DNA of 64,000 nt from an uncultured Prolixibacteraceae bacterium (lineage in GTDB: Bacteria; Bacteroidota; Bacteroidia; Bacteroidales; FEN-979): the NCBI GenBank assembly GCA_964616825.1, contig CAZTSX010000007.1, positions 40,248-104,247 on the forward strand, in the 5' to 3' direction. Position 1 is the first letter of the stretch. Each line of letters starts with the position of its first letter. Position numbers and translations under genes: made by a program. Under the pieces are notes generated by a model. The model made no database searches. It had not been told where the DNA came from and saw only the letters and a list, made by a program, of their open reading frames with translations. This document shows positions 979 to 55,588 of the stretch, in pieces.

Positions 979-1019
979 GTAAGTTTATTATTTAGAATTA
1001 TACTTGTTTCCTAATTCAT

Positions 1020-1059
1020 GGTGATGTGGTGACATGGTGATATGGTGAGTTGGTGAGTA
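1020..1059. repeat. imperfect tandem array, 5 x 8 nt (GGTGAnnT)
   Basis: Read directly as ggtgatgt ggtgacat ggtgatat ggtgagtt ggtgagta. It lies in the divergent spacer between the PurF-like and heparinase-like genes. Confidence 0.85.
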
Positions 1060-1167: not shown

Positions 1168-1203
1168 GATATAACCTTTTAGATATAACCCGGATTAATA
1201 GGG
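1168..1203 (+). repeat. copy e of the conserved motif ATAACCTTTT-N9-CCGGATTAAT
   Basis: Sequence gatATAACCTTTTagatataacCCGGATTAATaggg. It is followed 8 nt later by only a 12-codon ORF (MKISCIFAKESR), then by the heparinase-like gene. Confidence 0.7.
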
Positions 1204-1261: not shown

Positions 1262-3931
1262 TTGAGATACAGAATCCTGATAACAATTCTTTTTTGTCTT
1301 AGTTCCATGACAGGATTCTCCCAGGGTTCATGGAATCCGGCCGGAGCTGATCCCTCTTTTCCCCGAACCTTGCTTGATACCACTCAGATCGGCACGATCA
1401 GAAATACCCTGTCGGATACGAAGATTTATGATCTCTATCAGCTGGTATGGGACAACGCCAATAGCGATATTCCAGCAGGAAACACTACCAATGGCGAACG
1501 GGGCACGCGGGCACTGATCGCCAAAGAGGCAGCTTTTGTGGCACTCATGGATAGCAAACCTGTATTTGGAAATATCATTCCGTTAACTATTCAGGAGCGC
1601 GAACAGCTTAAGGTGAAGAGCAAACAATTGCTTGAGGAGATCAATACAGCAGTTGGTTTTCAGTCGGGATGGATCTTTTACCAAGAGTGGCAAAACCGTT
1701 CGAAGGAGCTGATCAACTATTTAATTGCGTATGATCTTTTACAAGCTACCGATTCCACAGTCTTCAGTCTGCAGTCTGCAAAAGATTCGTTGATTACATT
1801 CACCGCCCATCTCTATCACCGGGCAATGGCGACATATACGGTTTATTTCTGGCATTTTAAATTCTTCGAATTTCAGTTCAACAATCATAGCATCATGACA
1901 GCTTCTGCACTTGGACTGGCTGCTATCTTATTCAATGATTACGAAAATCCTGATCCCGACTACCAGCCACAAAACTGGATCGATGCCGGGTTATGGAACC
2001 TCGACAACACGCTCTTTCGTGAAAACGGCATCTATCCAAGATGTTCTGAACCGGATACGATTGCCGGATATGCTGAAGGGCCCGGCTATTTTGAATACGG
2101 TTTTGAGAATGCGTTCCCCTTTATCCGCGCTTTCTGGAATTTTCTCCCTGACGGGTACTATTCGATGACGTTTAATGCCGTAACCCGCGATATTCGAAAT
2201 CCCTGGTATGACCCCAATTATGATAACCTGTATGAGTGGATGAACCTCATCCGGATGCCTGATGGTAGCTCACCGGCTATTCATGATAGTCCGATCGGCT
2301 TCGGGACCAGCATCACTTCTTTGTCCGGAAAAAGTCGTTTTAACATTCCAAACCTCTCCTATCCGCCAACCGATGCCATGTGGCGCACCCAATATATTGC
2401 TTCGAACGTGCCGGAAGGCTCTTTTTCAGACACGCTGTTCAGAGCCCTCCCTGAAGCCGGCTCGGTAATTTTTCGCTCCTCCCACGATCGGGACGCAGTT
2501 TTCATGCACTTCATCGGAAAACATGACATTCCGCTTAGTGGTGCGAAAGCCCATCACCAGGGAGATGCCAGCAGTTTCTCAATCATGGCAAACGGCGAAC
2601 TGCTGGCTGTTGATCCCGGATATTCCGGTTACCAGGAGTCGTTTGCCATTAACCAGGCATCTAACCACAGTCTTGTATTGATCAATGGTTCAGGTCCCTT
2701 GCCACCCATCGGAGAATTTGTTAGCGTTGAAACCAACACCTGCTGGATCGAAAATTTCTTCAACACCCCACTGCTGGATTATGGGGAAGTACGAACCGCA
2801 TACTTTGACGCTGATATCATCCGGAAAAACCTGTTTGTACGGGATCGCTATTTCATCCTCTCCGATTTCCTCTCCTCCCCCGACCTGAATACCTATACCT
2901 TCCAGGTACAGGGAAACGGACTGATCGGAGGAACTCCCGGGACTCCGGAAGGAGTTTTTACGCCCGATTTCACTAACCATCAGGGTATCTATTCCAGGGA
3001 TTCGACACAATTACTCGTCCATACGACTGTTACCGATGGTGCTGATAGCTATACCTATACAATGGATAGCCTGGCCACAGGCACCAGCCAGTACCGTCAT
3101 TACAGCAAAATGCTGGTCCGGAAAGACAGTGTGGAAAACACACAATTCCTCTCCGTCCTGTTCCCGTTTAAACAAACAGAACCCGATGTAGTTACACTGC
3201 AAACACAACCGGGAATCAATGCGATCATGATTGAAGATGGGAATAATCAAGACCTGGCCTTCACACAGGAAGACTCCTCGCTTGTGGAGATCCCGTTGAG
3301 TATCAGCGGATTTCAAAACAATATTAAAGGCAATGGAGCAATGAATTTCATCTCTTTTTACACGAACTCCTTTCACTCGCTTTTTCTGGAGCATGGAGAT
3401 TCAATGATAGTCGGGAGTCATCTCTATATAAAAGCAGATCACCTTATTGATGTTGCATATCAGCACACAAATGATCTGCTGCATCAGGGATATGTGAGTG
3501 ATGCCGGATGGGTCGGATTCAGGACTGCTACCCCAGGGCATTTCATCCCTACTTCAGGAAACATTATCACATATACTTATGATTTCGATAATTCGCTCCT
3601 CATGGTGCTGTTTGGCGGACCGTCGAATTTCATTCTTGAATACTCTACTGGTGAAGGTGATCGCCCTGGAGAGAATCAGAACGATGAGATCCTCATCAAG
3701 AAGCTTGGAAATGGAAACTATGAGATGGTCATCAACAGTGATCGTTCAGAAGATGGGTTGATATCCATCTACGCTGTTTCCGGAAAGAATGTGTTGACAA
3801 GAAACGTTCATCTGTATCCCGGATCCAACAGCTACAGGTTTGATCTTTTCCGGTTTTCTGATGGACTCTACTTGATTTCCATAGCTTCTGACGCAAAGCA
3901 ATTCTCAACAAAACTTATCCACAACAACTAA
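1262..3931 (+). CDS. secreted heparinase II/III-like polysaccharide lyase-family protein with T9SS C-terminal sorting domain
   Basis: 889-aa ORF with a TTG start and signal peptide MRYRILITILFCLSSMTGFSQ. HHQGDASSFSIMANGELLAVDPGYSGY resembles the heparinase II/III C-domain signature. The last ~80 aa (LISIYAVSGKNV...LYLISIASDAKQFSTKLI) look like a T9SS CTD. Confidence 0.6.
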   Translation: MRYRILITILFCLSSMTGFSQGSWNPAGADPSFPRTLLDTTQIGTIRNTLSDTKIYDLYQLVWDNANSDIPAGNTTNGERGTRALIAKEAAFVALMDSKPVFGNIIPLTIQEREQLKVKSKQLLEEINTAVGFQSGWIFYQEWQNRSKELINYLIAYDLLQATDSTVFSLQSAKDSLITFTAHLYHRAMATYTVYFWHFKFFEFQFNNHSIMTASALGLAAILFNDYENPDPDYQPQNWIDAGLWNLDNTLFRENGIYPRCSEPDTIAGYAEGPGYFEYGFENAFPFIRAFWNFLPDGYYSMTFNAVTRDIRNPWYDPNYDNLYEWMNLIRMPDGSSPAIHDSPIGFGTSITSLSGKSRFNIPNLSYPPTDAMWRTQYIASNVPEGSFSDTLFRALPEAGSVIFRSSHDRDAVFMHFIGKHDIPLSGAKAHHQGDASSFSIMANGELLAVDPGYSGYQESFAINQASNHSLVLINGSGPLPPIGEFVSVETNTCWIENFFNTPLLDYGEVRTAYFDADIIRKNLFVRDRYFILSDFLSSPDLNTYTFQVQGNGLIGGTPGTPEGVFTPDFTNHQGIYSRDSTQLLVHTTVTDGADSYTYTMDSLATGTSQYRHYSKMLVRKDSVENTQFLSVLFPFKQTEPDVVTLQTQPGINAIMIEDGNNQDLAFTQEDSSLVEIPLSISGFQNNIKGNGAMNFISFYTNSFHSLFLEHGDSMIVGSHLYIKADHLIDVAYQHTNDLLHQGYVSDAGWVGFRTATPGHFIPTSGNIITYTYDFDNSLLMVLFGGPSNFILEYSTGEGDRPGENQNDEILIKKLGNGNYEMVINSDRSEDGLISIYAVSGKNVLTRNVHLYPGSNSYRFDLFRFSDGLYLISIASDAKQFSTKLIHNN

Positions 3932-3977: not shown

Positions 3978-4541
3978 TCATTCTTCTAACAGGTACATCT
4001 TCAATCCTTTTTCATCAACCGGTTCGATTAGCATTTTTTTCAGCGTTTCATAACTTCCAAACCGTTCATGAATCTCCTTTTTTGCAATCAGGGTAGGGTG
4101 TGGACTGATCGTGGCCCGGAACGAAGAGTATCGATACCACTCACAATTCGACACGACCCCATGCTTCCTTGGATTCTGATTGATATATCGCATTACATTA
4201 CACAATACTGCCTCACGGCGGATTTCGATCCGTTTTAGCTTGAAACGAAACAATTTCCCTATATGCCCGGTTTTGTTCACAAAACCCTTCGCATATGAGT
4301 TGAAAAGCAGAGCAAATGGCTTGTACGAATTCCCGTTAACCTCCTCTTTCATTCTGATCAGAAAATGAAAATGGTCGTCGAGAATGCAATATGCCCAGGT
4401 GTCGGCTACAGGCACAATATGCCTTTTGTATAGCTTCAGGAAGAAATGATAGTCCTCCTCTTTCGGAAACAATGGGTCCCCGTTTCTTGTCCGGTTATAA
4501 ATGTGATAAAATTTTCCCGGTTCCAGAATAATGGTTTTCAT
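3978..4541 (-). CDS. REP-associated / IS200-like Y1 (HUH) tyrosine transposase, solitary
   Basis: HUH motif DDHFHFLIRM and the Tyr region RYINQNPRKHG are present. There is no adjacent tnpB and I saw no terminal hairpins. Confidence 0.75.
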   Translation of the reverse strand: MKTIILEPGKFYHIYNRTRNGDPLFPKEEDYHFFLKLYKRHIVPVADTWAYCILDDHFHFLIRMKEEVNGNSYKPFALLFNSYAKGFVNKTGHIGKLFRFKLKRIEIRREAVLCNVMRYINQNPRKHGVVSNCEWYRYSSFRATISPHPTLIAKKEIHERFGSYETLKKMLIEPVDEKGLKMYLLEE

Positions 4542-4552
4542 AGCTTTTTTTA

Positions 4553-4587
4553 CCCATTAATCCGGAAAAGAGGCAAAAGGTTATACG
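4553..4587 (-). repeat. copy a of the conserved motif TATAACCTTTTG-N8-CCGGATTAATGG
   Basis: The reverse complement reads cgTATAACCTTTTGcctcttttCCGGATTAATGGg. It ends 11 nt upstream of the transposase ATG at 4541. Confidence 0.8.
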
Positions 4588-4747
4588 TTGTGGCAACGTT
4601 TTTTATTAACAACTTAGGGATTAAAGGCGATCCCGAAGTTTTTATTCATGAACTGTGAGGTGCGAATAGATCCACAATATCAGGCTGGATAGCCTCTGTG
4701 GGATTCAGCTGATTGAATCAGGGTAGAAAAATATTGTTCGGTGCAGA

Positions 4748-31212: not shown

Positions 31213-32154
31213 ATGAGCGAGAAAATAATCCGGATTGAGTCGGTTGACCCCTTAGAGATTTTTGGCATCAATGATCAGAACCTTGAGGAGGTACGAAACT
31301 TCTACCCGAAACTGAAAATCGTCGCCAGAGACAATGAAGTCAAGGCTATTGGCGAAAAGTCCATTCTCCTGGATTTCGAGGAGAAATTCACAACTTTAAT
31401 TCTCCATCACGAAAACTTCGGAAGGCTGACAAAAGCGGATATTTCATACCTGCTGAGTGCTGATAATGGAGATAAACCTTTGCAGAAGGAGGGGCATCAC
31501 AAGGAGGTGCTTATCCACGGGCGAAATGGGTTGCTGATACGGGCCCGGACTCCCAACCAGCAAAAGATGGTTGAGGCTGTTGATCAAAATGACCTGATGA
31601 TTGCCATTGGTCCGGCCGGAACAGGAAAGACATATACGGCAGTAGCTCTGGCTGTAAGAGCGTTGAAGAACAAAGAGGTGAAGCGTATCATTCTTACACG
31701 TCCAGCTGTGGAGGCCGGAGAAAACCTCGGATTCCTGCCGGGTGACCTGAAAGAGAAACTGGACCCTTATTTACAACCTCTGTACGACGCACTTCGAGAT
31801 ATGCTCCCTACACAAAAGCTTCTCGCATTCCTGGAAGATGGAACAATTGAAGTGGCTCCTCTTGCTTTCATGCGAGGCCGAACCCTGAACAATGCATTCG
31901 CTATCCTCGATGAAGCTCAGAATACAACCCCCGGCCAGTTAAAGATGTTCCTGACACGGATGGGAGCTTCCGCCAAATTCATCGTCACCGGCGACATCAC
32001 CCAGATTGATCTGCCGGAGAAACAGGTATCCGGCCTGATCCAGTCACAAAGCCTGTTGAAAGATATCCCCGGTATCTCTTTCGTCTATCTCGATGAAAAA
32101 GACATCATCCGGCATAAGCTGGTAAGCCGGATCATCAATGCATATGGAAAATGA
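31213..32154 (+). CDS. phoH: PhoH-family ATPase
   Basis: Walker A IGPAGTGKTYTAVALAV, plus ILDEAQN and GDITQIDL. Confidence 0.9.
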   Translation: MSEKIIRIESVDPLEIFGINDQNLEEVRNFYPKLKIVARDNEVKAIGEKSILLDFEEKFTTLILHHENFGRLTKADISYLLSADNGDKPLQKEGHHKEVLIHGRNGLLIRARTPNQQKMVEAVDQNDLMIAIGPAGTGKTYTAVALAVRALKNKEVKRIILTRPAVEAGENLGFLPGDLKEKLDPYLQPLYDALRDMLPTQKLLAFLEDGTIEVAPLAFMRGRTLNNAFAILDEAQNTTPGQLKMFLTRMGASAKFIVTGDITQIDLPEKQVSGLIQSQSLLKDIPGISFVYLDEKDIIRHKLVSRIINAYGK

Positions 32155-32272
32155 TGGTGATGTGGTGATGTGGTGGTATGGTGGTGTGGTGGTATGGTGG
32201 TATGGTGGTATGGTGGTGTGGTGGTATGGTGGTGTGATGGTGCAATGGTGCGATGGTGCAGTGGTGCAGTGG
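32153..32272. repeat. tandem array, exactly 15 x 8 nt (TRTGGTGG drifting to TGCAGTGG)
   Basis: The units were read in register from the phoH stop codon to 5 nt before the four-helix-bundle stop. The first 88 nt contain no C. Confidence 0.95.
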
Positions 32273-32276
32273 TGAG

Positions 32277-32642
32277 TTATTTTTTTAGACTTTTCCGGGT
32301 TTTAGCGAGAACCATTAGAATCCTAAGTGTTTCTTCTTTTAATGGATAAATTGCCTTCTGATCAATCCATCCAGTCTCTTCAATCATCTCTAACCAAAAA
32401 AGGGTTTCATCACATTCCTCAACAACAATACACAACTTTGCATAATGCTCTGCTTTGGATCTGGCCCGGCAAGATGCCCGGAAGTTTGCAGCTACTGAGC
32501 TACTACTACGAATAATTTGTTTCCCGATAATCCGCAACTCTTCTCGATTTTTCATTTTAGCATATAACTTAATAACGTTAATGGCCATCTGCTTTGTTCT
32601 TTTTCTGAACTCATCATTAAACGATTCTCTTACTTGTTCCAT
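32277..32642 (-). CDS. four-helix-bundle protein (23S rRNA intervening-sequence protein family)
   Basis: IIRSSSSVAANFRASCRARSKAEHYAKLCIVVEECDETLFWLEM is typical of the family. Confidence 0.8.
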   Translation of the reverse strand: MEQVRESFNDEFRKRTKQMAINVIKLYAKMKNREELRIIGKQIIRSSSSVAANFRASCRARSKAEHYAKLCIVVEECDETLFWLEMIEETGWIDQKAIYPLKEETLRILMVLAKTRKSLKK

Positions 32643-32651
32643 GGCTTTTCT

Positions 32652-32689
32652 TTATTAATCCGGAAAAAAACAAAAGGTTATATATTCGG
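32652..32689 (-). repeat. copy b of the conserved motif
   Basis: The reverse complement reads ccgaatATATAACCTTTTGtttttttCCGGATTAATaa. It ends 9 nt upstream of the ATG at 32642. Confidence 0.8.
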
Positions 32690-32714
32690 TATAAAAAAAT
32701 CAATATTAGTTTTT

Positions 32715-32745
32715 CACCATGGCTCCATGGCACCACGGCACCATT
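32715..32745. repeat. tandem array, 4 x 8 nt (CACCAYGG), the inverse complement of the 32244-32274 units
   Basis: Reads caccatgg ctccatgg caccacgg caccatt. Confidence 0.8.
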
Positions 32746-33749: not shown

Positions 33750-34982
33750 ATGATCTCTTTTTCACCTCCAAGAATGGATAAAAAAATCGTCGATGCTGTT
33801 GTCGACACCCTCTATTCAGGTTGGATCACTACCGGGCCAAAGACAAAGAAATTCGAGAAGATGCTTACCGCTTACGGCAGCCAACAGGCAACCCTCTGTG
33901 TCAGCTCAGGTTCAGCCGGACTCGAATTTGTTCTTCGCTGGTTTGGTGTCCGGGAAGGTGATGAAGTGATCGTGCCTGCTTATACCTATTGTGCAACAGC
34001 AAACGTTGTTCCTCATTGCGGGGCAAAAGTGATTTTTGTGGATGTCGGAGAAGATTTCAACATCTCTGTTGAAGCGATAGAGAAGGCTATCACACCCCGG
34101 ACAAAGGCGATAATCCCTGTTGACGTAGCCGGATTTCCCTGTGATTACAATGAAATCAATGCCCTGGTTAACAGAACGGATATCCGAAAGAAATTCATGC
34201 CTGAAACGAAGGAGCAGAAGGAGCTGGGCCGGATCCTGGTACTTTCTGATGCAGCTCACTCGATCGGAGCCTGGTACCACGGTAAACGAACAGGGTCGCT
34301 TACCGATATAACGGTTTACTCTTTTCATGCAGTTAAAAACCTCACAACAGCCGAAGGAGGAGCGATTTGTTTGAATCTTCCATCTCCATTCGACAATGAA
34401 GCCATCTACCAGAACCTCAATATTAAATCCCTGCATGGACAAACCAAAGATGCGCTGGCCAAAACACAGATCGGAAACTGGCGCTACGACATTATAGAAC
34501 TCGGTTATAAGTTCAATATGACCGACATTCAGGCAGCCATGGGCATAGTGGAACTTGAGCGGAATGATAACGATATGCTGGTCCGCCGAAAAGAGGTCTT
34601 CGATCGCTACACTGCAGCGCTCTCTGCCTATCCATGGGCTCAGCTACCCATTTATGAAACTCTTGAGAAACAATCGTCCTACCATGTTTTTCTCTTGCGG
34701 ATTAATGGGATCAATGAAGAACAGCGGGATGAGATCATCCGGGAGATTTTCAAACGGGATGTGGCTGTGAATGTCCACTTTGTACCTTTGCCGATGATGA
34801 CCTACTACAAAGATGCCGGATACCGGATGCCGGATTATCCGATATCCTATGACAACTATTCCAGGGAGATCACGCTTCCGGTTTATTATGACCTGACAGA
34901 TGAGATGGTTGATGAAGTAGTACGGGCAGTAGTAGAGGCAGTTGAAGAGGTAGTGAAAAAAAAAATTAGCTCCGACATATAA
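33750..34982 (+). CDS. DegT/DnrJ/EryC1/StrS-family PLP-dependent sugar aminotransferase
   Basis: SSGSAGLEFVL, DAAHSIGA and SFHAVKNLTTAEGG (PLP lysine). I prefer the ATG at 33750 over the tracked TTG at 33732. Confidence 0.85.
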   Translation: MISFSPPRMDKKIVDAVVDTLYSGWITTGPKTKKFEKMLTAYGSQQATLCVSSGSAGLEFVLRWFGVREGDEVIVPAYTYCATANVVPHCGAKVIFVDVGEDFNISVEAIEKAITPRTKAIIPVDVAGFPCDYNEINALVNRTDIRKKFMPETKEQKELGRILVLSDAAHSIGAWYHGKRTGSLTDITVYSFHAVKNLTTAEGGAICLNLPSPFDNEAIYQNLNIKSLHGQTKDALAKTQIGNWRYDIIELGYKFNMTDIQAAMGIVELERNDNDMLVRRKEVFDRYTAALSAYPWAQLPIYETLEKQSSYHVFLLRINGINEEQRDEIIREIFKRDVAVNVHFVPLPMMTYYKDAGYRMPDYPISYDNYSREITLPVYYDLTDEMVDEVVRAVVEAVEEVVKKKISSDI

Positions 34983-35009
34983 CCTTTTGGCACTAAACCG
35001 GATTAATGG
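34977..35009 (+). repeat. copy c of the conserved motif
   Basis: Reads atATAACCTTTTGgcactaaaCCGGATTAATGG. It starts on the DegT stop codon and lies 39 nt upstream of the ATG at 35049. Confidence 0.8.
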
Positions 35010-35048: not shown

Positions 35049-35777
35049 ATGAAAAATCCACATTTCATTACCTCCATCTACCATTACTGTGATCGATGGT
35101 GCAGCCGGTGTTCCAAAACGACTCAATGTCGCGTATTTGTTGATAACCAGGAAAAGGAACTTTCTGCTAACGAACAGAATATCCGGAAAGAGGCCTTCTG
35201 GATAAAATTATCTGAAAAACTTCCTGATTTTATTGAGATGCTTGAGAAAAAGTCGTTAGAAATGGGAGCCGATCTGGAAGAACTAATCCCCGGTCCTCCT
35301 TCAACCATTGAATCCGATCACGCTAAGTTGATCGATCAGGCCACCATTTATGGAATCGAAGTGAATCCCTGGATGAATGACCTGTATTTTCGTCTGAAAC
35401 AATCCGGGGAAACTATCGAAGGTAAAAGTGAAGAATCAGTAGATCAAATCATTGAAGCGTTTGAAGTTCTAAGATGGTATAGCCTTCTAATTAGTGTTAA
35501 GATAAGCCGAGCTGCTTATAAAATGAATGATCCCGATGATGAATTAGCAGACTATGACCAGGTCGGTGCAGCAAAAATGGCACTCATCAGTCTGGACCGG
35601 TCCATCGCTGCTTTCACCACAATTTTCAAGGAATTTCCGCAGGAAGAGGATGAAATTTTGATTTTTCTCGCTAAACTTGCAAAAATTAAGCAGGGATTAA
35701 TTCTGGCGTTTCCCGGCGTTAAGTTATTTAAACGCCCGGGATTTGACGATGAGAAAATGAAAGCATTATCGAACTGA
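35049..35777 (+). CDS. hypothetical helical protein with an N-terminal Cx3Cx2Cx5C motif
   Basis: 242-aa ORF beginning YHYCDRWCSRCSKTTQCRVF. I recognised no family. It lies between the aminotransferase and sugar transferase genes. Confidence 0.6.
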   Translation: MKNPHFITSIYHYCDRWCSRCSKTTQCRVFVDNQEKELSANEQNIRKEAFWIKLSEKLPDFIEMLEKKSLEMGADLEELIPGPPSTIESDHAKLIDQATIYGIEVNPWMNDLYFRLKQSGETIEGKSEESVDQIIEAFEVLRWYSLLISVKISRAAYKMNDPDDELADYDQVGAAKMALISLDRSIAAFTTIFKEFPQEEDEILIFLAKLAKIKQGLILAFPGVKLFKRPGFDDEKMKALSN

Positions 35778-39650: not shown

Positions 39651-39713
39651 CCACCATCCAATATCCAACATCTAACATCCAACATCTAACATCCGGCATC
39701 CAACATCTCATTT
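39651..39713. repeat. tandem array, 9 x 7 nt (CYAACAT)
   Basis: Reads ccaccat ccaatat ccaacat ctaacat ccaacat ctaacat ccggcat ccaacat ctcattt. Nearly G-free on the plus strand. Confidence 0.9.
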
Positions 39714-39730: not shown

Positions 39731-41029
39731 ATGAAGATCGAGATCATCAACATCGGCGATGAGATCCTCATTGGACAGGTTGTCAATACCAACGCAGCCT
39801 GGATGGCGGAGGAGCTGAACCGGATTGGGTTCAAGGTGTTTCAGTTCACGGTAATTTCTGATAAGCGTGAACACATCCTTCAGGCTTTGACTGATGCTCA
39901 GAACCGTGCCGATCTGGTCCTGGTCAGCGGGGGTATCGGACCGACCAGAGACGACATCACCAAACAGACCATTTGTGAGTTTTTCGATACAAAACTGGTG
40001 TTCAATGAAGATGCTTTCCGCGATATTGAGACCCTCTTCGGTCAACGGGGATATAAAATCACCGAGGTAAACCGCAAACAAGCTGAGTTGCCAGAAAATT
40101 GTATCTCACTGCCTAACCGAATGGGAACCGCGAGAGGGATGTGGTTTGAGAACAAAATGAAATTCGAAATTCGAAATTCGAAATTTGAAAATAAAGAATC
40201 GTGGATCGCGGATCCCAGATCCCAAATCTTTGTGTTTTTACCAGGTGTCCCGTTTGAAATGAAGGATCTTTTCACCCGTGAGGTCATCCCACGTTTGAAG
40301 GAACGGTTCACTCCACAGGTAATCTATCATAAAACCGTTATGACACAAGGTAAAGGCGAGTCGTTTATGGCTGATATCATAGAGGAGTGGGAGAACAACC
40401 TGCCTGAGCACATCAGCCTTGCTTATCTCCCTCAACCGGGGATTGTCCGGCTCCGGTTTACCGCCGTGGGCGAGCAGCAGGATGAGCTGGAGAAAGAGGT
40501 CGATAACGAGATCCGGAAGTTACACAAACTCATTCCCGATCTGATATTCGGATATGATACGGATACCCTGGAAGCGGTTGTCGGACAGCTCTTAATGGTG
40601 AAAGGTCAATCGCTCGCCACGGCGGAAAGCTGCACCGGCGGATATATTGCTCACCTGATCACATCCATTGCAGGCAGTTCCAGTTACTTTAAAGGATCAA
40701 TAGTCGCTTACTCTAACGAAGCCAAAGAGAATATCCTTTATGTGAAAGAGGATAGCCTGGTCGCACACGGAGCTGTGAGTCAGCAGGTAGTACTTGAGAT
40801 GGCCCTGGGAGCACGGGATCGTTTCAGAACCGATTATTCAATTGCTACTTCAGGGATTGCCGGTCCAACAGGAGGAACCCAGGAAAAACCGGTTGGAACT
40901 GTTTGGATTGCCATTGCCACACCCGAACGGGTTTTTGCTAAGCAATACCTTTTCGGAGATCACCGGGAACGAAATATCAGAAGAACGGCTTTGCAGGCGT
41001 TGAATTTGTTGCGGAAAGAGATGTTGTGA
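39731..41029 (+). CDS. cinA: CinA-family protein (MoCF-like domain plus PncC-type nicotinamide-nucleotide amidohydrolase domain)
   Basis: MKIEIINIGDEILIGQVVNTNAAW..., C-terminal TAESCTGG and SGIAGPTGG motifs. At 432 aa it carries an extra loop segment. Confidence 0.9.
   Translation: MKIEIINIGDEILIGQVVNTNAAWMAEELNRIGFKVFQFTVISDKREHILQALTDAQNRADLVLVSGGIGPTRDDITKQTICEFFDTKLVFNEDAFRDIETLFGQRGYKITEVNRKQAELPENCISLPNRMGTARGMWFENKMKFEIRNSKFENKESWIADPRSQIFVFLPGVPFEMKDLFTREVIPRLKERFTPQVIYHKTVMTQGKGESFMADIIEEWENNLPEHISLAYLPQPGIVRLRFTAVGEQQDELEKEVDNEIRKLHKLIPDLIFGYDTDTLEAVVGQLLMVKGQSLATAESCTGGYIAHLITSIAGSSSYFKGSIVAYSNEAKENILYVKEDSLVAHGAVSQQVVLEMALGARDRFRTDYSIATSGIAGPTGGTQEKPVGTVWIAIATPERVFAKQYLFGDHRERNIRRTALQALNLLRKEML
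40155..40230. repeat. two adjacent heptamer arrays (GAAATTC x4, GGATCNC x3) lying in frame inside cinA
   Basis: Reads aaattcgaaattcgaaattcgaaatttgaaaat...gtggatcgcggatcccagatcccaaatc. It encodes KFEIRNSKFENKESWIADPRSQ. Confidence 0.85.
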
Positions 41030-48733: not shown

Positions 48734-48768
48734 GTATAACCTTTTGGCCTGAAAGCGGATTAATGGAA
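48734..48768 (+). repeat. copy d of the conserved motif
   Basis: Reads gTATAACCTTTTGgcctgaaagCGGATTAATGGaag, 82 nt upstream of the inferred higB start. Confidence 0.8.
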
Positions 48769-48797
48769 GAGAAAATAATAACAACGATTAAAGTAAT

Positions 48798-48824
48798 AAA
48801 AAGTTCTCAAAACGAGAACTTTTT
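48798..48824. promoter_or_regulatory. 11-bp perfect inverted repeat, a likely HigA operator (or an insulating hairpin)
   Basis: aaaaagttctc aaaac gagaacttttt, immediately upstream of a -7 box. Confidence 0.5.
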
Positions 48825-48826
48825 AT

Positions 48827-48834
48827 TACTTTTG
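48827..48834 (+). promoter_or_regulatory. candidate -7 promoter box (TACTTTTG) for higBA
   Basis: It ends 16 nt upstream of the CTG at 48851. Confidence 0.45.
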
Positions 48835-48850
48835 TAAAACCAGATCTCTG

Positions 48851-49147
48851 CTGAAACGAATCATTGCAAAGAGAACGCTGAAAGAATTCTGGGAGAAATA
48901 CCCTGATTGTGAACAATATTTAAAAACCTGGCATGAAATAGCAATGGGAGCAGATTGGAATTCTCCAAATGAGATAAAGAATAGTTATGTAAACGCCAGT
49001 ATATTAAAAGGCAACAGAGTGGTATTTAACATAAAAGGCAATTCATACAGACTGGTAGTAAGGTTCAATTATCAAAGACAATGGGCTTTTATTCGTTTTA
49101 TTGGGACCCATTTGGAATACAACAACATAGATGCTGAAACAATTTAA
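48851..49147 (+). CDS. higB: HigB-type mRNA interferase toxin (type II TA); no canonical start codon at the homologous N-terminus
   Basis: In-frame upstream translation gives LLKRIIAKRTLKEFWEKYPDCEQYLKTWHEIAMGADW...RVVFNIKGNSYRLVVRFNYQRQWAFIRFIGTHLEYNNIDAETI, which matches the HigB family over its full length. The frame is open from 48800 but has no ATG, GTG or TTG before the ATG at 48944. Confidence 0.7.
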   Translation: MKRIIAKRTLKEFWEKYPDCEQYLKTWHEIAMGADWNSPNEIKNSYVNASILKGNRVVFNIKGNSYRLVVRFNYQRQWAFIRFIGTHLEYNNIDAETI

Positions 49148-49157
49148 TTAATTAGAG

Positions 49158-49526
49158 ATGGATATTAAACCAATAAAGACAAATTTAGATTATGTAAACG
49201 CTCTTGCTAGACTTGGACAGGTTTTCGATGCTCAAATGGAAACTCCTGAAGGTGATGAAGCTGAAATTCTATCTCTTTTGATTGAGAACTATGAGAATCA
49301 ACATTATTCCATTGAAGCTCCTGATCCTATTGAAGCAATAAAAATCAGGATGGAAGAGATGGCTTTAAAGCAAAAGGATTTAGTAGGTGTAATTGGTGGG
49401 AAAAGTCGTGTCTCAGAAATTCTTAACAAGAAGAAAAGGTTAACTGTTGAGATGATCAGGAATCTGAACGTCAAGCTTAATTTATCCCCTTCAATCTTAG
49501 TAAACAATTACGCCTTATGTGAATAG
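49158..49526 (+). CDS. higA: HigA-type HTH (XRE-like) antitoxin
   Basis: 122 aa, 10 nt after higB, with the C-terminal HTH KQKDLVGVIGGKSRVSEILNKKKRLTVEMIRNL. Confidence 0.8.
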   Translation: MDIKPIKTNLDYVNALARLGQVFDAQMETPEGDEAEILSLLIENYENQHYSIEAPDPIEAIKIRMEEMALKQKDLVGVIGGKSRVSEILNKKKRLTVEMIRNLNVKLNLSPSILVNNYALCE

Positions 49527-55524: not shown

Positions 55525-55588
55525 GACAGGTTAGACAAGTATCCAGTTATCCAGTTATCCAGTAATCCAGCTATCTGGTTATCCACTC
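55525..55588 (+). repeat. tandem array, ~6 x 8 nt (ATCCAGTT) preceded by GACAGGTTAGACAAGT; right copy of the direct-repeat pair
   Basis: Reads gacaggttagacaagt atccagtt atccagtt atccagta atccagct atctggtt atccactc. The last two units encode the C-terminus (EWITR*) of the convergent peptidase gene. Confidence 0.85.

What the first reader, a model, noticed from the sequence alone, without database searches (positions are those of the whole stretch)
4553..4587. A conserved ~35-nt motif (TATAACCTTTTG-N7-9-CCGGATTAATGG) occurs five times, four of them just upstream of unrelated small accessory genes
**Copies seen.**
- 4553-4587 (minus strand), 11 nt before the Y1 transposase ATG.
- 32652-32689 (minus strand), 9 nt before the four-helix-bundle ATG.
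- 34977-35009 (plus strand), starting on the DegT stop and 39 nt before the Cys-motif hypothetical gene.
- 48734-48768 (plus strand), 82 nt before higB.
- 1168-1203 (plus strand), followed only by a 12-codon ORF and then the heparinase-like gene.

**Other observations.**
- The orientation relative to the downstream gene is always the same.
- The two conserved blocks are nearly invariant while the spacer between them varies.
- The motif is not palindromic.
- None of the ~45 housekeeping genes in the window has it.

**Inference.**
- It may be a shared promoter/leader or transcription-factor site for a class of selfish or accessory single-gene cassettes.
- It may instead be the conserved 5' boundary (integration or homing site) of such cassettes.
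- The copy at 1168 could be an emptied or decayed cassette.
- I cannot match the motif to a known RNA family, an attC site or an IS end.
Basis: seen in the sequence. Interest (0 to 1): 0.7.

Follow-up and report, generated by a model that had tools for sequence, protein, structure and literature searches.

The report
Alternative sigma-factor promoter in Bacteroidales
The repeated 32-base motif is most likely the promoter read by one specialised (ECF-type) sigma factor of a group of uncultured Bacteroidales. It switches on the sigma factor's own gene, DNA-recombination genes (recA, ssb, comM, radC) and many small nuclease-like accessory genes, so it is an ordinary kind of element marking a regulon I found no description of.

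Summary
All five copies of TATAACCTTTTG-N7/8-CCGGATTAATGG are real (0 expected by chance) and share one orientation relative to the downstream gene.

It is not an RNA, a MITE/IS end or a cassette boundary. It has the geometry of an ECF sigma-factor promoter (aTAAC-N15-CGG, the same spacing as GTAA-N16-CGT), preceded by an A/T tract.

- **Spread.** Exact copies occur 48 times in 11 Bacteroidales/Prolixibacteraceae MAGs. In 32 of 53 copies an ATG lies within 30 nt downstream, against 1 of 53 in reverse orientation.
- **Targets.** They include an ECF sigma gene (four MAGs, always 17 nt upstream) that heads a sigma / anti-sigma-like / TPR-CHAT protease operon. Others are recA, ssb, comM, DUF2851, integrases and many small nuclease-like or four-helix-bundle genes.
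- **Independent tests.** Sigma, ComM and RecA orthologues found by protein similarity carry the motif or a lineage-specific variant. One contig has the same variant before sigma, a Y1 operon and radC.

The "emptied cassette" guess for copy 1168 is supported: a relative has a DUF559 gene there. I rate it a new member of a known kind. No transcription data exist.

The parts
4554..4604 (-). Promoter copy 1. A-tract 4599-4604, -35 block TATAACCTTTTG 4574-4585, 8-nt spacer, -10 block CCGGATTAATGG 4554-4565.
   Evidence: Exact match. The same arrangement lies 14 nt before the orthologous gene in 6 other MAG loci.
3978..4541 (-). 187-aa HUH/Y1 (RAYT-like) gene driven by copy 1. Conserved, low-copy and syntenic.
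   Evidence: NCBIfam REP_Tyr_transpos 46 bits, below the cut-off of 80. About 60 homologue clusters are nearly all 185-187 aa, each on few contigs. Synteny with the rubrerythrin and 1235-aa neighbours is kept in L026, L027, L041, L129 and L131.
32652..32699 (-). Promoter copy 2. T-tract 32693-32699, block 1 32671-32682, 7-nt spacer, block 2 CCGGATTAATAA 32652-32663.
32277..32642 (-). 121-aa four-helix-bundle gene (23S_rRNA_IVP / TIGR02436); ATG 9 nt after copy 2.
   Evidence: Pfam 2e-14, NCBIfam 4.7e-22. The same family follows the motif in L006, L018, L022 and L023.
34956..35009 (+). Promoter copy 3. A-tract 34956-34965, block 1 34978-34989 (overlaps the DegT stop codon TAA 34980-34982), block 2 34998-35009.
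   Evidence: Exact match.
35049..35777 (+). 242-aa Cys-rich hypothetical gene, 39 nt after copy 3.
   Evidence: ORF. No hit in Pfam, NCBIfam, PADLOC or PHROGs.
48735..48766 (+). Promoter copy 4 (block 2 GCGGATTAATGG). No ORF directly behind it.
48790..48832 (.). Perfect 19-bp inverted repeat with a 5-nt loop, between copy 4 and higB. It is followed by a housekeeping-type -7 box TACTTTTG (48827-48834). It may be a terminator or the HigA operator.
   Evidence: Read from the sequence.
48851..49526 (+). higB-like reading frame (no ATG at its start; ATG-started part 48944-49147) and higA-like gene 49158-49526. They probably have their own sigmaA promoter.
   Evidence: Pfam HigB_toxin 2.3e-26, profile positions 15-74. 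PADLOC PD-Lambda-2_B 8.7e-41 and a PHROG transcriptional regulator for the 122-aa protein.
1170..1201 (+). Promoter copy 5 (TATAACCTTTTA-N8-CCGGATTAATAG). It is an orphan, followed by a 12-codon ORF (1213-1251) and a sigmaA-type -7 box TATCTTTG (1226-1233).
   Evidence: The orthologous copy in L027 (3327-3360) drives a DUF559 gene that the window lacks.
1262..3931 (+). Heparinase-II/III-like T9SS-secreted protein. It probably has its own sigmaA promoter and possibly receives read-through from copy 5.
   Evidence: Weak Pfam matches: Hepar_II_III_C 6.6e-4 (19.7 bits, cut-off 24) and Por_Secre_tail 1.3e-5 (25.9 bits, cut-off 27). A signal peptide is encoded from TTG 1262.

Best explanation
The motif is the -35/-10 promoter recognised by one ECF-type alternative sigma factor of this Bacteroidales clade.

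**Proposed parts (inferred).**
- Block 1 (TATAACC) is the -35 element, carrying the AAC core that sigma region 4 reads.
- Block 2 (CGGATTAAT) is the -10 element plus the discriminator.
- The A/T tract 14-19 nt upstream acts as an UP-like element.
- Transcription should start within about 10 nt after block 2. That would give very short, A-rich leaders (about 5-17 nt), as suits Bacteroidota, which (own knowledge) make little use of Shine-Dalgarno pairing.

**The sigma factor.** Its gene is not in the window. In related genomes it heads an operon of sigma, a membrane anti-sigma-like protein and an exported TPR-CHAT caspase-like protease. The same motif sits 17 nt before its ATG, which implies positive autoregulation.

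**Proposed control (inferred by analogy).** A signal sensed by the TPR-CHAT protein leads to loss of the anti-sigma and release of sigma. All motif-bearing genes are then co-induced. These include recA, ssb, comM, radC, DUF2851, integrases, large T9SS-secreted proteins and a cloud of small nuclease-like or four-helix-bundle genes. In the window the targets are the Y1-like gene, the four-helix-bundle gene and the 242-aa gene; two further copies are orphan or tandem promoters.

**Shown versus inferred.** Shown: motif anatomy, its position and orientation, the gene set, the link to the sigma gene, and variation across lineages. Inferred: which element contacts which sigma region, the start site, and the inducing signal.
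For: 1. **Geometry.** ATAA-N16-CGG has the same spacing as the GTAA-N16-CGT pattern used to find promoters of the ECF sigma DdvS. The 15 nt between AAC and CGG (14 in the 7-nt-spacer copies) falls in the 14-17 bp spacer range given for ECF promoters (PMC6061681). The spacer between the 12-mers is 8 nt in 48 of 53 copies and 7 nt in 5.
2. **Position and orientation.** An ORF of at least 60 aa starts within 30 nt downstream in 32 of 53 copies, against 1 of 53 for the reverse orientation. The commonest distance is 14 nt.
3. **No other promoter nearby.** The clade's housekeeping -7 box TAnnTTTG precedes 13 of 39 long ORFs in the window, against 4% of random 120-nt windows. It is near only 3 of 32 short-distance motif copies.
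4. **Autoregulation signature.** The motif lies 17 nt before a 194-aa sigma gene in 4 MAGs. That protein scores 61 bits on TIGR02937 sigma70-ECF (cut-off 42.9) and hits Pfam Sigma70_r2 and r4_2.
5. **Independent test on sigma homologues.** Sigma homologues were fetched from metagenomes by protein similarity alone.
   - 76-100% identity: the same motif, with one or two block-1 substitutions in L050 and L053.
   - 46-50% identity (L054, L056, L057, L059): GTAT(T/G)AC(C/A)TTTTC-N8-CCGATTAATG, and a more diverged second block in L055.
   - About 40% identity: GTATTACCTTTTA-N8-TGGATTAAGG.
   - About 28% identity: GGTTAC-N18-TACTAAT, which recurs at a second gene 1.4 kb away.
6. **Variant shared within one contig.** On contig Ga0268284_1000044 the sigma gene (L058), a Y1 operon and radC (L129) all carry TTAC...CGGATTAA(G/A)C instead of TAAC...CGGATTAATG.
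7. **Regulon members confirmed by protein-first searches.** ComM orthologues carry the motif in L133, L134 and L136. RecA orthologues carry block 1 plus CCGGATATAGAG in L138 and L139.
8. **Conserved operon.** The sigma / anti-sigma-like / TPR-CHAT order holds in L001, L007, L013 and L049-L059.
9. **Not an RNA.** RNAalifold predicts 0 pairs over 53 copies. A hand-drawn hairpin does no better than shuffles (219 of 500). Rfam gives nothing meaningful.
Against: - No transcription start sites, expression data or sigma-DNA binding data exist for these uncultured organisms.
- The -10 block reads CGG where classical ECF promoters read CGT. In recA promoters the ATTAAT part is replaced by ATATAG, so which bases sigma region 2 reads is uncertain.
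- The motif is more strongly conserved (about 21 near-invariant bases, a partly conserved C-rich spacer and a downstream A-run) than most ECF promoters. Part of this comes from the exact-pattern search and from orthologous copies, but a second bound factor cannot be excluded.
- The putative anti-sigma matches no family model. Its role is assigned from position, a membrane segment and an N-terminal sequence typical of anti-sigma domains (own reading).
- The sigma gene could not be looked for in the window's own genome. It is present in the closest MAG, NIOZ-UU56 (L013). That MAG's L041 is 92% identical to the window.
- Motif variation tracking sigma divergence would also arise if another lineage-specific regulator bound the site.
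Confidence: 0.8

Rival explanations
1. The motif is an operator for a sequence-specific repressor or activator (for example an SOS-like or competence regulator). It overlaps or replaces the promoter, and the sigma gene is merely one of its targets.
For: - The motif is unusually long and invariant, with a partly conserved spacer.
- The targets recA, ssb, comM and radC resemble SOS or competence regulons, which other bacteria control with DNA-binding proteins (own knowledge).
- recA and ssb also have housekeeping -7 boxes next to the motif.
Against: - The motif is not palindromic and not a direct repeat, unlike most operators.
- 29 of 32 close-range copies have no other recognisable promoter, and there is no room for one before the ATG.
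- Its geometry equals that of ECF promoters.
- It precedes a sigma gene in every close orthologue and varies with that sigma family down to 28% identity.
Confidence: 0.08
2. The motif is the conserved 5' end or the integration target of mobile single-gene cassettes. Small selfish genes insert immediately downstream of it or carry it with them.
For: - Window and L027 are syntenic up to about 6 nt after the motif. L027 then has a DUF559 gene plus repeats that the window lacks.
- Many downstream genes belong to families that occur as scattered small genes: 23S_rRNA_IVP, PDDEXK_3, GIY-YIG, DUF559.
- Several are bracketed by inverted tandem-repeat arrays.
Against: - The same motif precedes core genes (recA, ssb, comM, radC, sigma) at fixed positions in several genomes.
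- There is no shared 3' motif and no conservation beyond about 55 nt.
- The Y1 gene is syntenic and vertically inherited.
- No recombinase is linked to the small-gene copies. The integrase genes that do follow the motif (L009, L028, L031) appear as downstream targets, not as neighbours of such cassettes.
- There are 0 hits in viral contigs.
- At best this is a secondary phenomenon, namely gene capture behind an existing promoter.
Confidence: 0.05
3. The motif is a structured or protein-bound 5' leader RNA element, transcribed from an upstream promoter and acting on translation or stability.
For: - It lies directly before start codons.
- A T-run in block 1 and an A-run after block 2 could pair.
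Against: - RNAalifold finds no consensus pair in 53 copies.
- The candidate helix shows no covariation above shuffles: paired cells 68.4% against a shuffled mean of 68.1%.
- Single-sequence folds are not better than shuffles (z from -1.95 to +0.78).
- Rfam gives nothing at the gathering threshold and only chance-level matches at E up to 1.
- An upstream housekeeping promoter is usually absent.
Confidence: 0.03
4. The motif is a strong variant of the housekeeping Bacteroidota sigmaA promoter (-33 TTTG / -7 TAnnTTTG).
For: - Block 1 ends in TTTTG.
- A TT lies 11-13 nt upstream of block 1.
Against: - Block 1 does not fit TAnnTTTG in any register.
- The final G is an A in 14 of 53 copies.
- The upstream TT is about 14 nt away, not 19-21 (own knowledge of the consensus).
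- The invariant block 2 has no counterpart in sigmaA promoters.
- Only 5 of roughly 50 genes in the window carry the motif, while canonical -7 boxes are common there.
Confidence: 0.03

Closest known systems
ECF (group 4) sigma-factor promoters and their autoregulated sigma/anti-sigma operons
   Same: - A bipartite, non-palindromic motif with an AAC-containing -35 element and a CG-starting -10 element.
- 15 nt between AAC and CGG, within the 14-17 bp spacer range cited for ECF promoters.
- High information content.
- A copy before the sigma gene itself, with an anti-sigma-like gene next to it.
   Different: - The -10 element reads CGGATTAAT rather than CGT(C/A).
- Conservation extends through the presumed start site.
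- A conserved A/T tract lies upstream.
- The ATG follows only 11-17 nt after the motif in most targets.
DdvS/DdvA of Myxococcus xanthus: an ECF sigma with a transmembrane anti-sigma carrying a periplasmic TPR-CHAT domain, controlling a CBASS-CRISPR defence island (PMC11506125, PMC6061681)
   Same: - An ECF sigma genetically coupled to a TPR-CHAT caspase-like protein outside the cytoplasm.
- An autoregulated promoter with identical spacing (GTAA-N16-CGT against ATAA-N16-CGG).
- A regulon of nucleic-acid-directed functions.
   Different: - Here the anti-sigma-like protein (260 aa) and the TPR-CHAT protein (837 aa) are separate genes.
- The anti-sigma-like N-terminus has no Cys/His zinc motif.
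- The CHAT domain keeps His (HLATHG) and Cys (LSTCS) motifs.
- The targets are scattered genome-wide rather than in one island.
- The targets are recA, ssb, comM, radC and small nuclease-like genes rather than CBASS and CRISPR.
- That paper reports DdvA-like proteins only in Myxococcota and one Comamonas species.
Type III-E CRISPR Craspase: the TPR-CHAT protease Csx29 cleaves Csx30, which is linked to an ECF sigma RpoE (PMC10028731)
   Same: The same logic: a TPR-CHAT protease coupled to control of an ECF sigma factor.
   Different: No CRISPR genes lie next to the sigma operon in the loci examined, and the protease here appears to be exported. This is an analogy only.
Competence regulons with dedicated promoters (ComX cin-box in streptococci; Sxy/CRP-S in Haemophilus and Vibrio)
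   Same: The gene content overlaps. recA, ssb, comM and radC are classic members of those regulons (own knowledge), and all four carry the motif here.
   Different: No DNA-uptake genes (comEC, comF, dprA, pilus genes) were seen among the motif-linked genes sampled. The regulator type differs. No experimental link to transformation exists in this clade.
REP/RAYT systems and IS200/IS605 ends
   Same: One copy sits next to an HUH/Y1 gene that some sources label RayT.
   Different: - The motif is not a hairpin.
- It does not flank the gene on both sides.
- It occurs mostly at unrelated genes.
- The Y1 gene is single-copy and syntenic.

Membership tests
ECF sigma-dependent promoter | Bipartite -35/-10 motif with an AAC core in the -35, a CG(T) core in the -10, and a spacer of about 14-17 bp | tested here: met
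   The motif is TATAAC-C-TTTTG-N8-C-CGG, so AAC and CGG are 15 nt apart (14 in the 7-nt-spacer copies). The spacing equals that of GTAA-N16-CGT. One deviation: CGG instead of CGT.
ECF sigma-dependent promoter | Lies upstream of genes, in the same orientation, at promoter distance | tested here: met
   32 of 53 copies have an ATG within 30 nt downstream, against 1 of 53 in reverse orientation. 48 of 53 are within 200 nt.
ECF sigma-dependent promoter | A copy lies upstream of the cognate sigma gene (autoregulation) and changes as the sigma diverges | tested here: met
   The motif is 17 nt before the sigma ATG in 4 MAGs and in 5 metagenome orthologues found by protein search. Graded variants appear at 50%, 40%, 30% and 28% identity. 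The same variant precedes sigma, the Y1 operon and radC on one contig.
ECF sigma-dependent promoter | The cognate factor is a two-domain (regions 2 and 4) sigma with an adjacent anti-sigma | tested here: inconclusive
   The sigma passes: TIGR02937 61 bits (cut-off 42.9), Pfam r2 2.3e-6 and r4_2 9.8e-5. The downstream 260-aa membrane protein matches no family. It is called an anti-sigma only from its position and sequence features.
ECF sigma-dependent promoter | Transcription starts just downstream of the -10 and depends on the sigma factor | not testable with these tools
   No expression or 5'-end data are available for these uncultured genomes.
Bacteroidota housekeeping (sigmaA) promoter | -7 box TAnnTTTG with a -33 TTTG 19-21 bp upstream | tested here: not met
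   Block 1 fits TAnnTTTG in no register. The last G is an A in 14 of 53 copies. The upstream TT is only about 14 nt away. Canonical boxes are common elsewhere in the window.
Structured cis-regulatory RNA or known Rfam family | A conserved secondary structure supported by covariation, or a match to a curated model | tested here: not met
   0 consensus pairs in 53 copies. The candidate helix is no better than shuffles. Rfam gives 0 hits at the gathering threshold and only chance-level hits at E up to 1.
MITE, IS terminus or REP element | Terminal inverted repeats or a hairpin; conserved element body; copies flanking the transposase; no fixed relation to host genes | tested here: not met
   Conservation ends about 20 nt upstream of the motif and about 10 nt downstream. 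There is no inverted partner and no 3' motif. The relation to downstream ATGs is strict.
Integron attC or gene-cassette recombination site | An imperfect palindrome at the 3' end of cassettes, arrays of cassettes, and a linked integrase | tested here: not met
   The motif is 5' of genes, non-palindromic and dispersed. No integrase adjoins the window copies.
DdvS/DdvA-type system | A single transmembrane anti-sigma with a zinc-binding N-terminal domain fused to a periplasmic TPR-CHAT domain | tested here: not met
   The anti-sigma-like protein and the TPR-CHAT protein are separate ORFs (L001 2049-2831 and 2828-5341). No Cys/His zinc motif occurs in the first 80 residues. CHAT 4.2e-41 plus TPR repeats. 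It works like the DdvS/DdvA system but is not a member.

The most novel reading that the evidence does not exclude
The motif defines an undescribed Bacteroidales stress programme. An exported TPR-CHAT protease senses a signal, possibly phage attack, DNA damage or foreign DNA, and frees an ECF sigma. The sigma then co-induces the DNA-processing core of a competence- or SOS-like response (recA, ssb, comM, radC, DUF2851). It induces together with them dozens of small orphan genes: four-helix-bundle/Avd-like, GIY-YIG, PD-(D/E)XK, DUF559, HUH/Y1, Bro-N, ORF6N, integrases.

This would give those enigmatic multi-copy families their first shared regulatory context. It also suggests that they spread by landing just behind existing copies of this promoter (promoter capture), as at window 1170 compared with L027.
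Probability: 0.3. Interest if true: 0.7.

Novelty: new member of a known kind. Interest (0 to 1): 0.5.

Why it matters
- **A readable regulon in uncultured bacteria.** Bacteroidota carry dozens of ECF sigma factors whose targets are mostly unknown. This one can be read from sequence alone because its promoter is so information-rich.
- **What the regulon links.** It joins recA, ssb, comM and radC, a gene set that marks competence or DNA-damage responses elsewhere. No regulator of that set is known to me in this clade. It also includes small nuclease-like and four-helix-bundle gene families that are abundant but functionally obscure.
- **A wider distribution for a control logic.** The sigma operon extends the TPR-CHAT-protease / ECF-sigma arrangement to Bacteroidota in a split-gene form. 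That arrangement is so far characterised only for DdvA/DdvS in Myxococcus, with a parallel in type III-E CRISPR.
- **Practical use.** The motif is a ready-made search pattern for enumerating the regulon in any genome of the clade, and a candidate orthogonal promoter/sigma pair.

Tried and rejected
- **Structured RNA.** Single-sequence folds, RNAalifold on 53 copies, a hand-drawn hairpin around block 2 and Rfam at two thresholds were all negative.
- **MITE, IS end or REP.** Flank alignments, position-wise conservation and a k-mer search for a shared 3' boundary among 29 small downstream genes showed nothing shared beyond the roughly 55-nt element.
- **Phage origin.** The exact pattern has 0 hits in the viral contig collection.
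- **Housekeeping promoter.** The motif does not fit the -33/-7 consensus.
- **Literature.**
  - Searches for the motif strings returned only chance hits such as primers and mitochondrial genomes.
  - Searches on ECF/recA/comM, on the small gene families and on TPR-CHAT with Bacteroidota found no description of this motif or regulon.
  - A search on CHAT domain, anti-sigma and ECF found only the Myxococcus DdvS/DdvA and type III-E analogues.
  - The B. thetaiotaomicron iModulon paper matched only through the word "recall".
  - The dCas12f-sigmaE paper is unrelated, because no Cas12f gene adjoins this sigma.
- **Function of window genes.** PADLOC and PHROGs scans of the window's motif-driven genes gave nothing for the Y1, four-helix-bundle and 242-aa proteins.
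- **Failed or negative look-ups.** One RecA look-up (P0192) was not on record. RecA of the 5.27-Mb genome (L137) and ComM of a widespread lineage (L135) have no motif within 115-190 nt.
- **Sigma gene in the window.** tblastn found no homologue there.
Full report
**1. The observation**

The window contains five copies of the two-block motif: 4554-4585(-), 32652-32682(-), 34978-35009(+), 48735-48766(+) and 1170-1201(+).
- The exact pattern TATAACCTTTTG-N5-12-CCGGATTAATGG matches twice, with 0.00 expected from shuffles. The other three copies differ at 1-2 of 24 positions.
- A relaxed scan found no further copy in the window above chance level.
- The window is from a Bacteroidota genome: T9SS sorting domains are present, and it is 92% identical over 1.6 kb to MAG NIOZ-UU56.

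**2. The motif elsewhere**

One scan of the species-representative genome collection with TATAACCTTTTR-N6-10-CGGATTAAT returned 48 loci.
- They come from 11 Bacteroidales, Prolixibacteraceae or Bacteroidota MAGs, with up to about ten exact copies per MAG.
- The viral contig collection gave no hit.

Across the 53 copies, conservation extends only a little beyond the two blocks.
- An A/T-only tract sits at -19 to -14, TT at -13 to -11 and AAcR at -4 to -1, all relative to the first T of the motif.
- The spacer is C-rich, and G(G/T)NN-AAAAA follows block 2.
- Further out there is no similarity, so the motif is not part of a longer repeat element.
- The spacer between the 12-mers is 8 nt in 48 copies and 7 nt in 5.

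**3. Position and orientation**

- An ATG-initiated ORF of at least 60 aa begins within 30 nt downstream in 32 of 53 copies. The commonest distance from TTAAT to the ATG is 14 nt.
- For the reverse orientation the figure is 1 of 53.
- Some copies are orthologous to each other, so they are not independent. Even so, about 30 unrelated protein clusters are represented.

**4. Genes that follow the motif**

| Gene or family | Loci |
|---|---|
| 194-aa ECF-type sigma factor | L001, L007, L013, L024 (always 17 nt) |
| RecA | L020 |
| SSB | L043, L048 |
| ComM/YifB | L010, L011 |
| DUF2851 | L008, L025 |
| 821-aa G8-domain secreted protein with a weak T9SS-tail match | seven loci |
| LTD-domain T9SS protein | L021 |
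| Tyrosine recombinases | L009, L028, L031 |
| Bro-N | L004 |
| ORF6N | L016 |
| 187-aa HUH/Y1 protein | seven loci, including the window |
| A second Y1_Tnp protein | L045 |
| Four-helix-bundle 23S_rRNA_IVP proteins | window, L006, L018, L022, L023 |
| PDDEXK_3 | L002, L036 |
| GIY-YIG | L030, L040 |
| DUF559 | L027, behind a relaxed copy |

The motif is therefore not specific to selfish cassettes.

**5. Link to a sigma factor**

- The sigma passes the NCBIfam sigma70-ECF model (61 bits, cut-off 42.9) and hits Pfam regions 2 and 4_2.
- It is followed by an overlapping 260-aa ORF with one membrane segment and an anti-sigma-like N-terminus. No family model matches this ORF.
- Next comes an 837-aa protein with an N-terminal hydrophobic segment, TPR repeats and a CHAT domain (4.2e-41). 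The CHAT domain keeps His and Cys motifs.
- This gene order is conserved in all close orthologues.

As an independent test, sigma homologues were fetched from metagenomes by protein similarity only. Their upstream regions show the following.

| Identity to the sigma | Upstream motif |
|---|---|
| 76-100% | Same motif, still 17 nt before the ATG; L050 and L053 have one or two block-1 substitutions |
| 46-50% (L054, L056, L057, L059) | GTAT(T/G)AC(C/A)TTTTC-N8-CCGATTAATG; L055 has a more diverged second block |
| About 40% | GTATTACCTTTTA-N8-TGGATTAAGG |
| About 30% | GGGTGACCTTTT... |
| About 28% | GGTTAC-N18-TACTAAT, again after an A-tract, and repeated before a second gene about 1.4 kb downstream |

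A motif that stays in front of the sigma gene and drifts as the sigma drifts is the usual signature of an autoregulated ECF promoter.

**6. Variation across the whole regulon, and protein-first confirmation**

- **Y1 family.** Homologues of the window's Y1 protein led to contig Ga0268284_1000044, which also carries sigma homologue L058.
  - On that contig the sigma gene has CATTACCTTTTC-N8-CGGATTAAAC.
  - A two-gene Y1 operon has TACTACCTTTTA-N8-CCGGATTAAGCA, 15 nt before its ATG.
  - radC has TATTACCTTTTG-N8-CCGGATTAAGCA, 13 nt before its ATG.
  - A 3.55-Mb genome (L131) shows the same variant at the Y1 operon and at radC.
- **ComM.** Orthologues chosen by protein similarity carry the motif in three of four lineages: L136, L133 and L134, but not L135.
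- **RecA.** Orthologues carry block 1 plus CCGGATATAGAG in L138 and L139, and nothing within 190 nt in L137.

**7. Why a promoter and not something else**

- **Geometry.** ATAA-N16-CGG has exactly the spacing of the GTAA-N16-CGT pattern used for promoters of the ECF sigma DdvS. That paper describes AAc and cGT as the cores shared by ECF promoters and gives a spacer of 14-17 bp (PMC6061681).
- **No competing promoter.** The clade's housekeeping -7 box TAnnTTTG is common in the window: 13 of 39 long ORFs, against 4% of random windows. It accompanies only 3 of 32 short-distance motif copies, and there is no room for another promoter before the ATG.
- **Dual promoters at housekeeping targets.** Where the motif is farther from the gene (ssb, window higB, window heparinase-like gene), a canonical -7 box lies between them. 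For recA in L020 a -7 box lies just upstream of the motif. This suggests that housekeeping targets have two promoters.
- **Not an RNA.** RNAalifold finds no consensus pair, a candidate hairpin is no better than shuffles, and Rfam has no match.
- **Not a mobile-element end.** There is no extended conservation, no inverted partner and no common 3' motif.

**8. The five window copies**

- **Copies 1-3** directly precede the HUH/Y1 gene (3978-4541), the four-helix-bundle gene (32277-32642) and a 242-aa Cys-rich ORF (35049-35777).
- **The Y1 gene** is a conserved, low-copy family with preserved neighbours (rubrerythrin and a 1235-aa Fer2/molybdopterin protein) in several lineages. It is a resident gene, not an active transposase.
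- **Copy 4** is followed by a perfect 19-bp palindrome (48790-48832) and then a sigmaA-type box before higB. The higB frame has no ATG at its start.
- **Copy 5** is followed by a 12-codon ORF and a sigmaA-type box before the heparinase-like gene.
  - In syntenic L027 the orthologous copy drives a DUF559 endonuclease gene plus 57-nt repeats that the window lacks.
  - Homology between the two loci breaks about 6 nt after the motif.

**9. Proposed mechanism**

The following is inferred by analogy, not shown.
- The anti-sigma-like membrane protein holds the sigma inactive.
- The exported TPR-CHAT protease responds to an unknown signal and triggers loss of the anti-sigma.
- The freed sigma directs RNA polymerase to the motif, raising its own synthesis and that of the regulon.

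The closest characterised analogue is DdvS/DdvA of Myxococcus xanthus. There the TPR-CHAT domain is fused to the anti-sigma, and the regulon is a CBASS-CRISPR defence island (PMC11506125). Type III-E Craspase, Csx30 and RpoE offer a further analogy (PMC10028731).

The target set of recA, ssb, comM and radC resembles competence or DNA-damage regulons of other phyla (own knowledge). No DNA-uptake genes were seen among the sampled targets, so the physiological role remains open.

**10. Novelty and limits**

- Five literature searches found no description of this motif, sigma operon or regulon in the held library.
- The kind of element, an ECF sigma promoter, is well known. The member and its regulon appear to be new.
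- Everything rests on comparative sequence analysis of uncultured genomes.
- Copies were first collected with an exact pattern, which overstates the motif's invariance.
- Several copies are orthologous to each other.
- The sigma gene could not be looked for in the window's own genome.

Noticed in passing
window 32154-32274 and 32715-32744; also window 1017-1056; loci L018, L022, L023, L026, L027, L036, L048: Small motif-driven genes sit between inverted arrays of 7-8-nt tandem repeats. In the window, TGGTGGTG x15 and CACCATGG x3.8 bracket the four-helix-bundle gene and its promoter (30-nt arms, 80% complementary, 448 nt apart). L022 has (GAGACGT)n upstream and (ACGTCTC)n downstream. An ATGGTGAT x4.9 array lies about 110 nt upstream of orphan copy 1170. 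This recalls the stem that encloses ORFs in 23S rRNA intervening sequences (own knowledge); its function is unknown.
   Followed up: partly
window 39651-39707, 40159-40190, 55540-55585: Further short-period tandem arrays (CCAACAT x8, GAAATTC x4.6, TATCCAGT x5.8), found by Tandem Repeats Finder. Their relation to neighbouring genes was not examined.
   Followed up: no
window 48790-49147: The higB-like frame matches HigB_toxin only from profile position 15, and its N-terminal extension has no ATG (LLKRIIAKRTL...). It may be a decayed toxin or use an unusual start. A perfect 19-bp palindrome with a 5-nt loop lies just upstream.
   Followed up: partly
L027 3820-4010: Downstream of the DUF559 gene that the window lacks, there are about three tandem copies of a 57-nt unit (cacccctccttgagaaggaggggaaataattcacttcaacttctgtgttcgtga). 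Each contains a small hairpin.
   Followed up: no
L129 9569-10564; L131 9564-10564: In more distant lineages the 187-aa Y1-like gene is the second gene of a two-gene operon, behind a 141-146-aa canonical Y1_Tnp gene. The window lineage has only the 187-aa gene. Neighbours are conserved throughout.
   Followed up: partly
L082, L090, L091, L100, L101, L107, L108 (about 1.4 kb downstream of the sigma start): In the distant sigma group, the second GGTTAC-N18-TACTAAT copy is followed 8-15 nt later by a conserved CAGTTCTTTGAAAG-like sequence, with no ATG-started ORF of at least 50 aa called within 300 nt. It could be a small RNA or a gene with a non-ATG start.
   Followed up: no
L137 810-1000: The region upstream of recA in the 5.27-Mb genome is built almost entirely of consecutive heptamer arrays, (GGTCAGA)n, (GGATAGA)n and (GCCCGAA)n, and lacks the motif.
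   Followed up: no
L020, L043, L048; window 48827-48834 and 1226-1233: Housekeeping targets appear to have tandem promoters. A canonical Bacteroidota -7 box (TACTTTTG, TAATTTTG or TATCTTTG) lies next to the ECF-type motif at recA, ssb, higB and the heparinase-like gene.
   Followed up: partly
L077-L127: Even sigma homologues of only 25-30% identity (mostly from soil metagenomes) have a CHAT-domain gene within about 3 kb, on the opposite strand. The sigma-CHAT linkage is therefore much older than the window's clade.
   Followed up: partly
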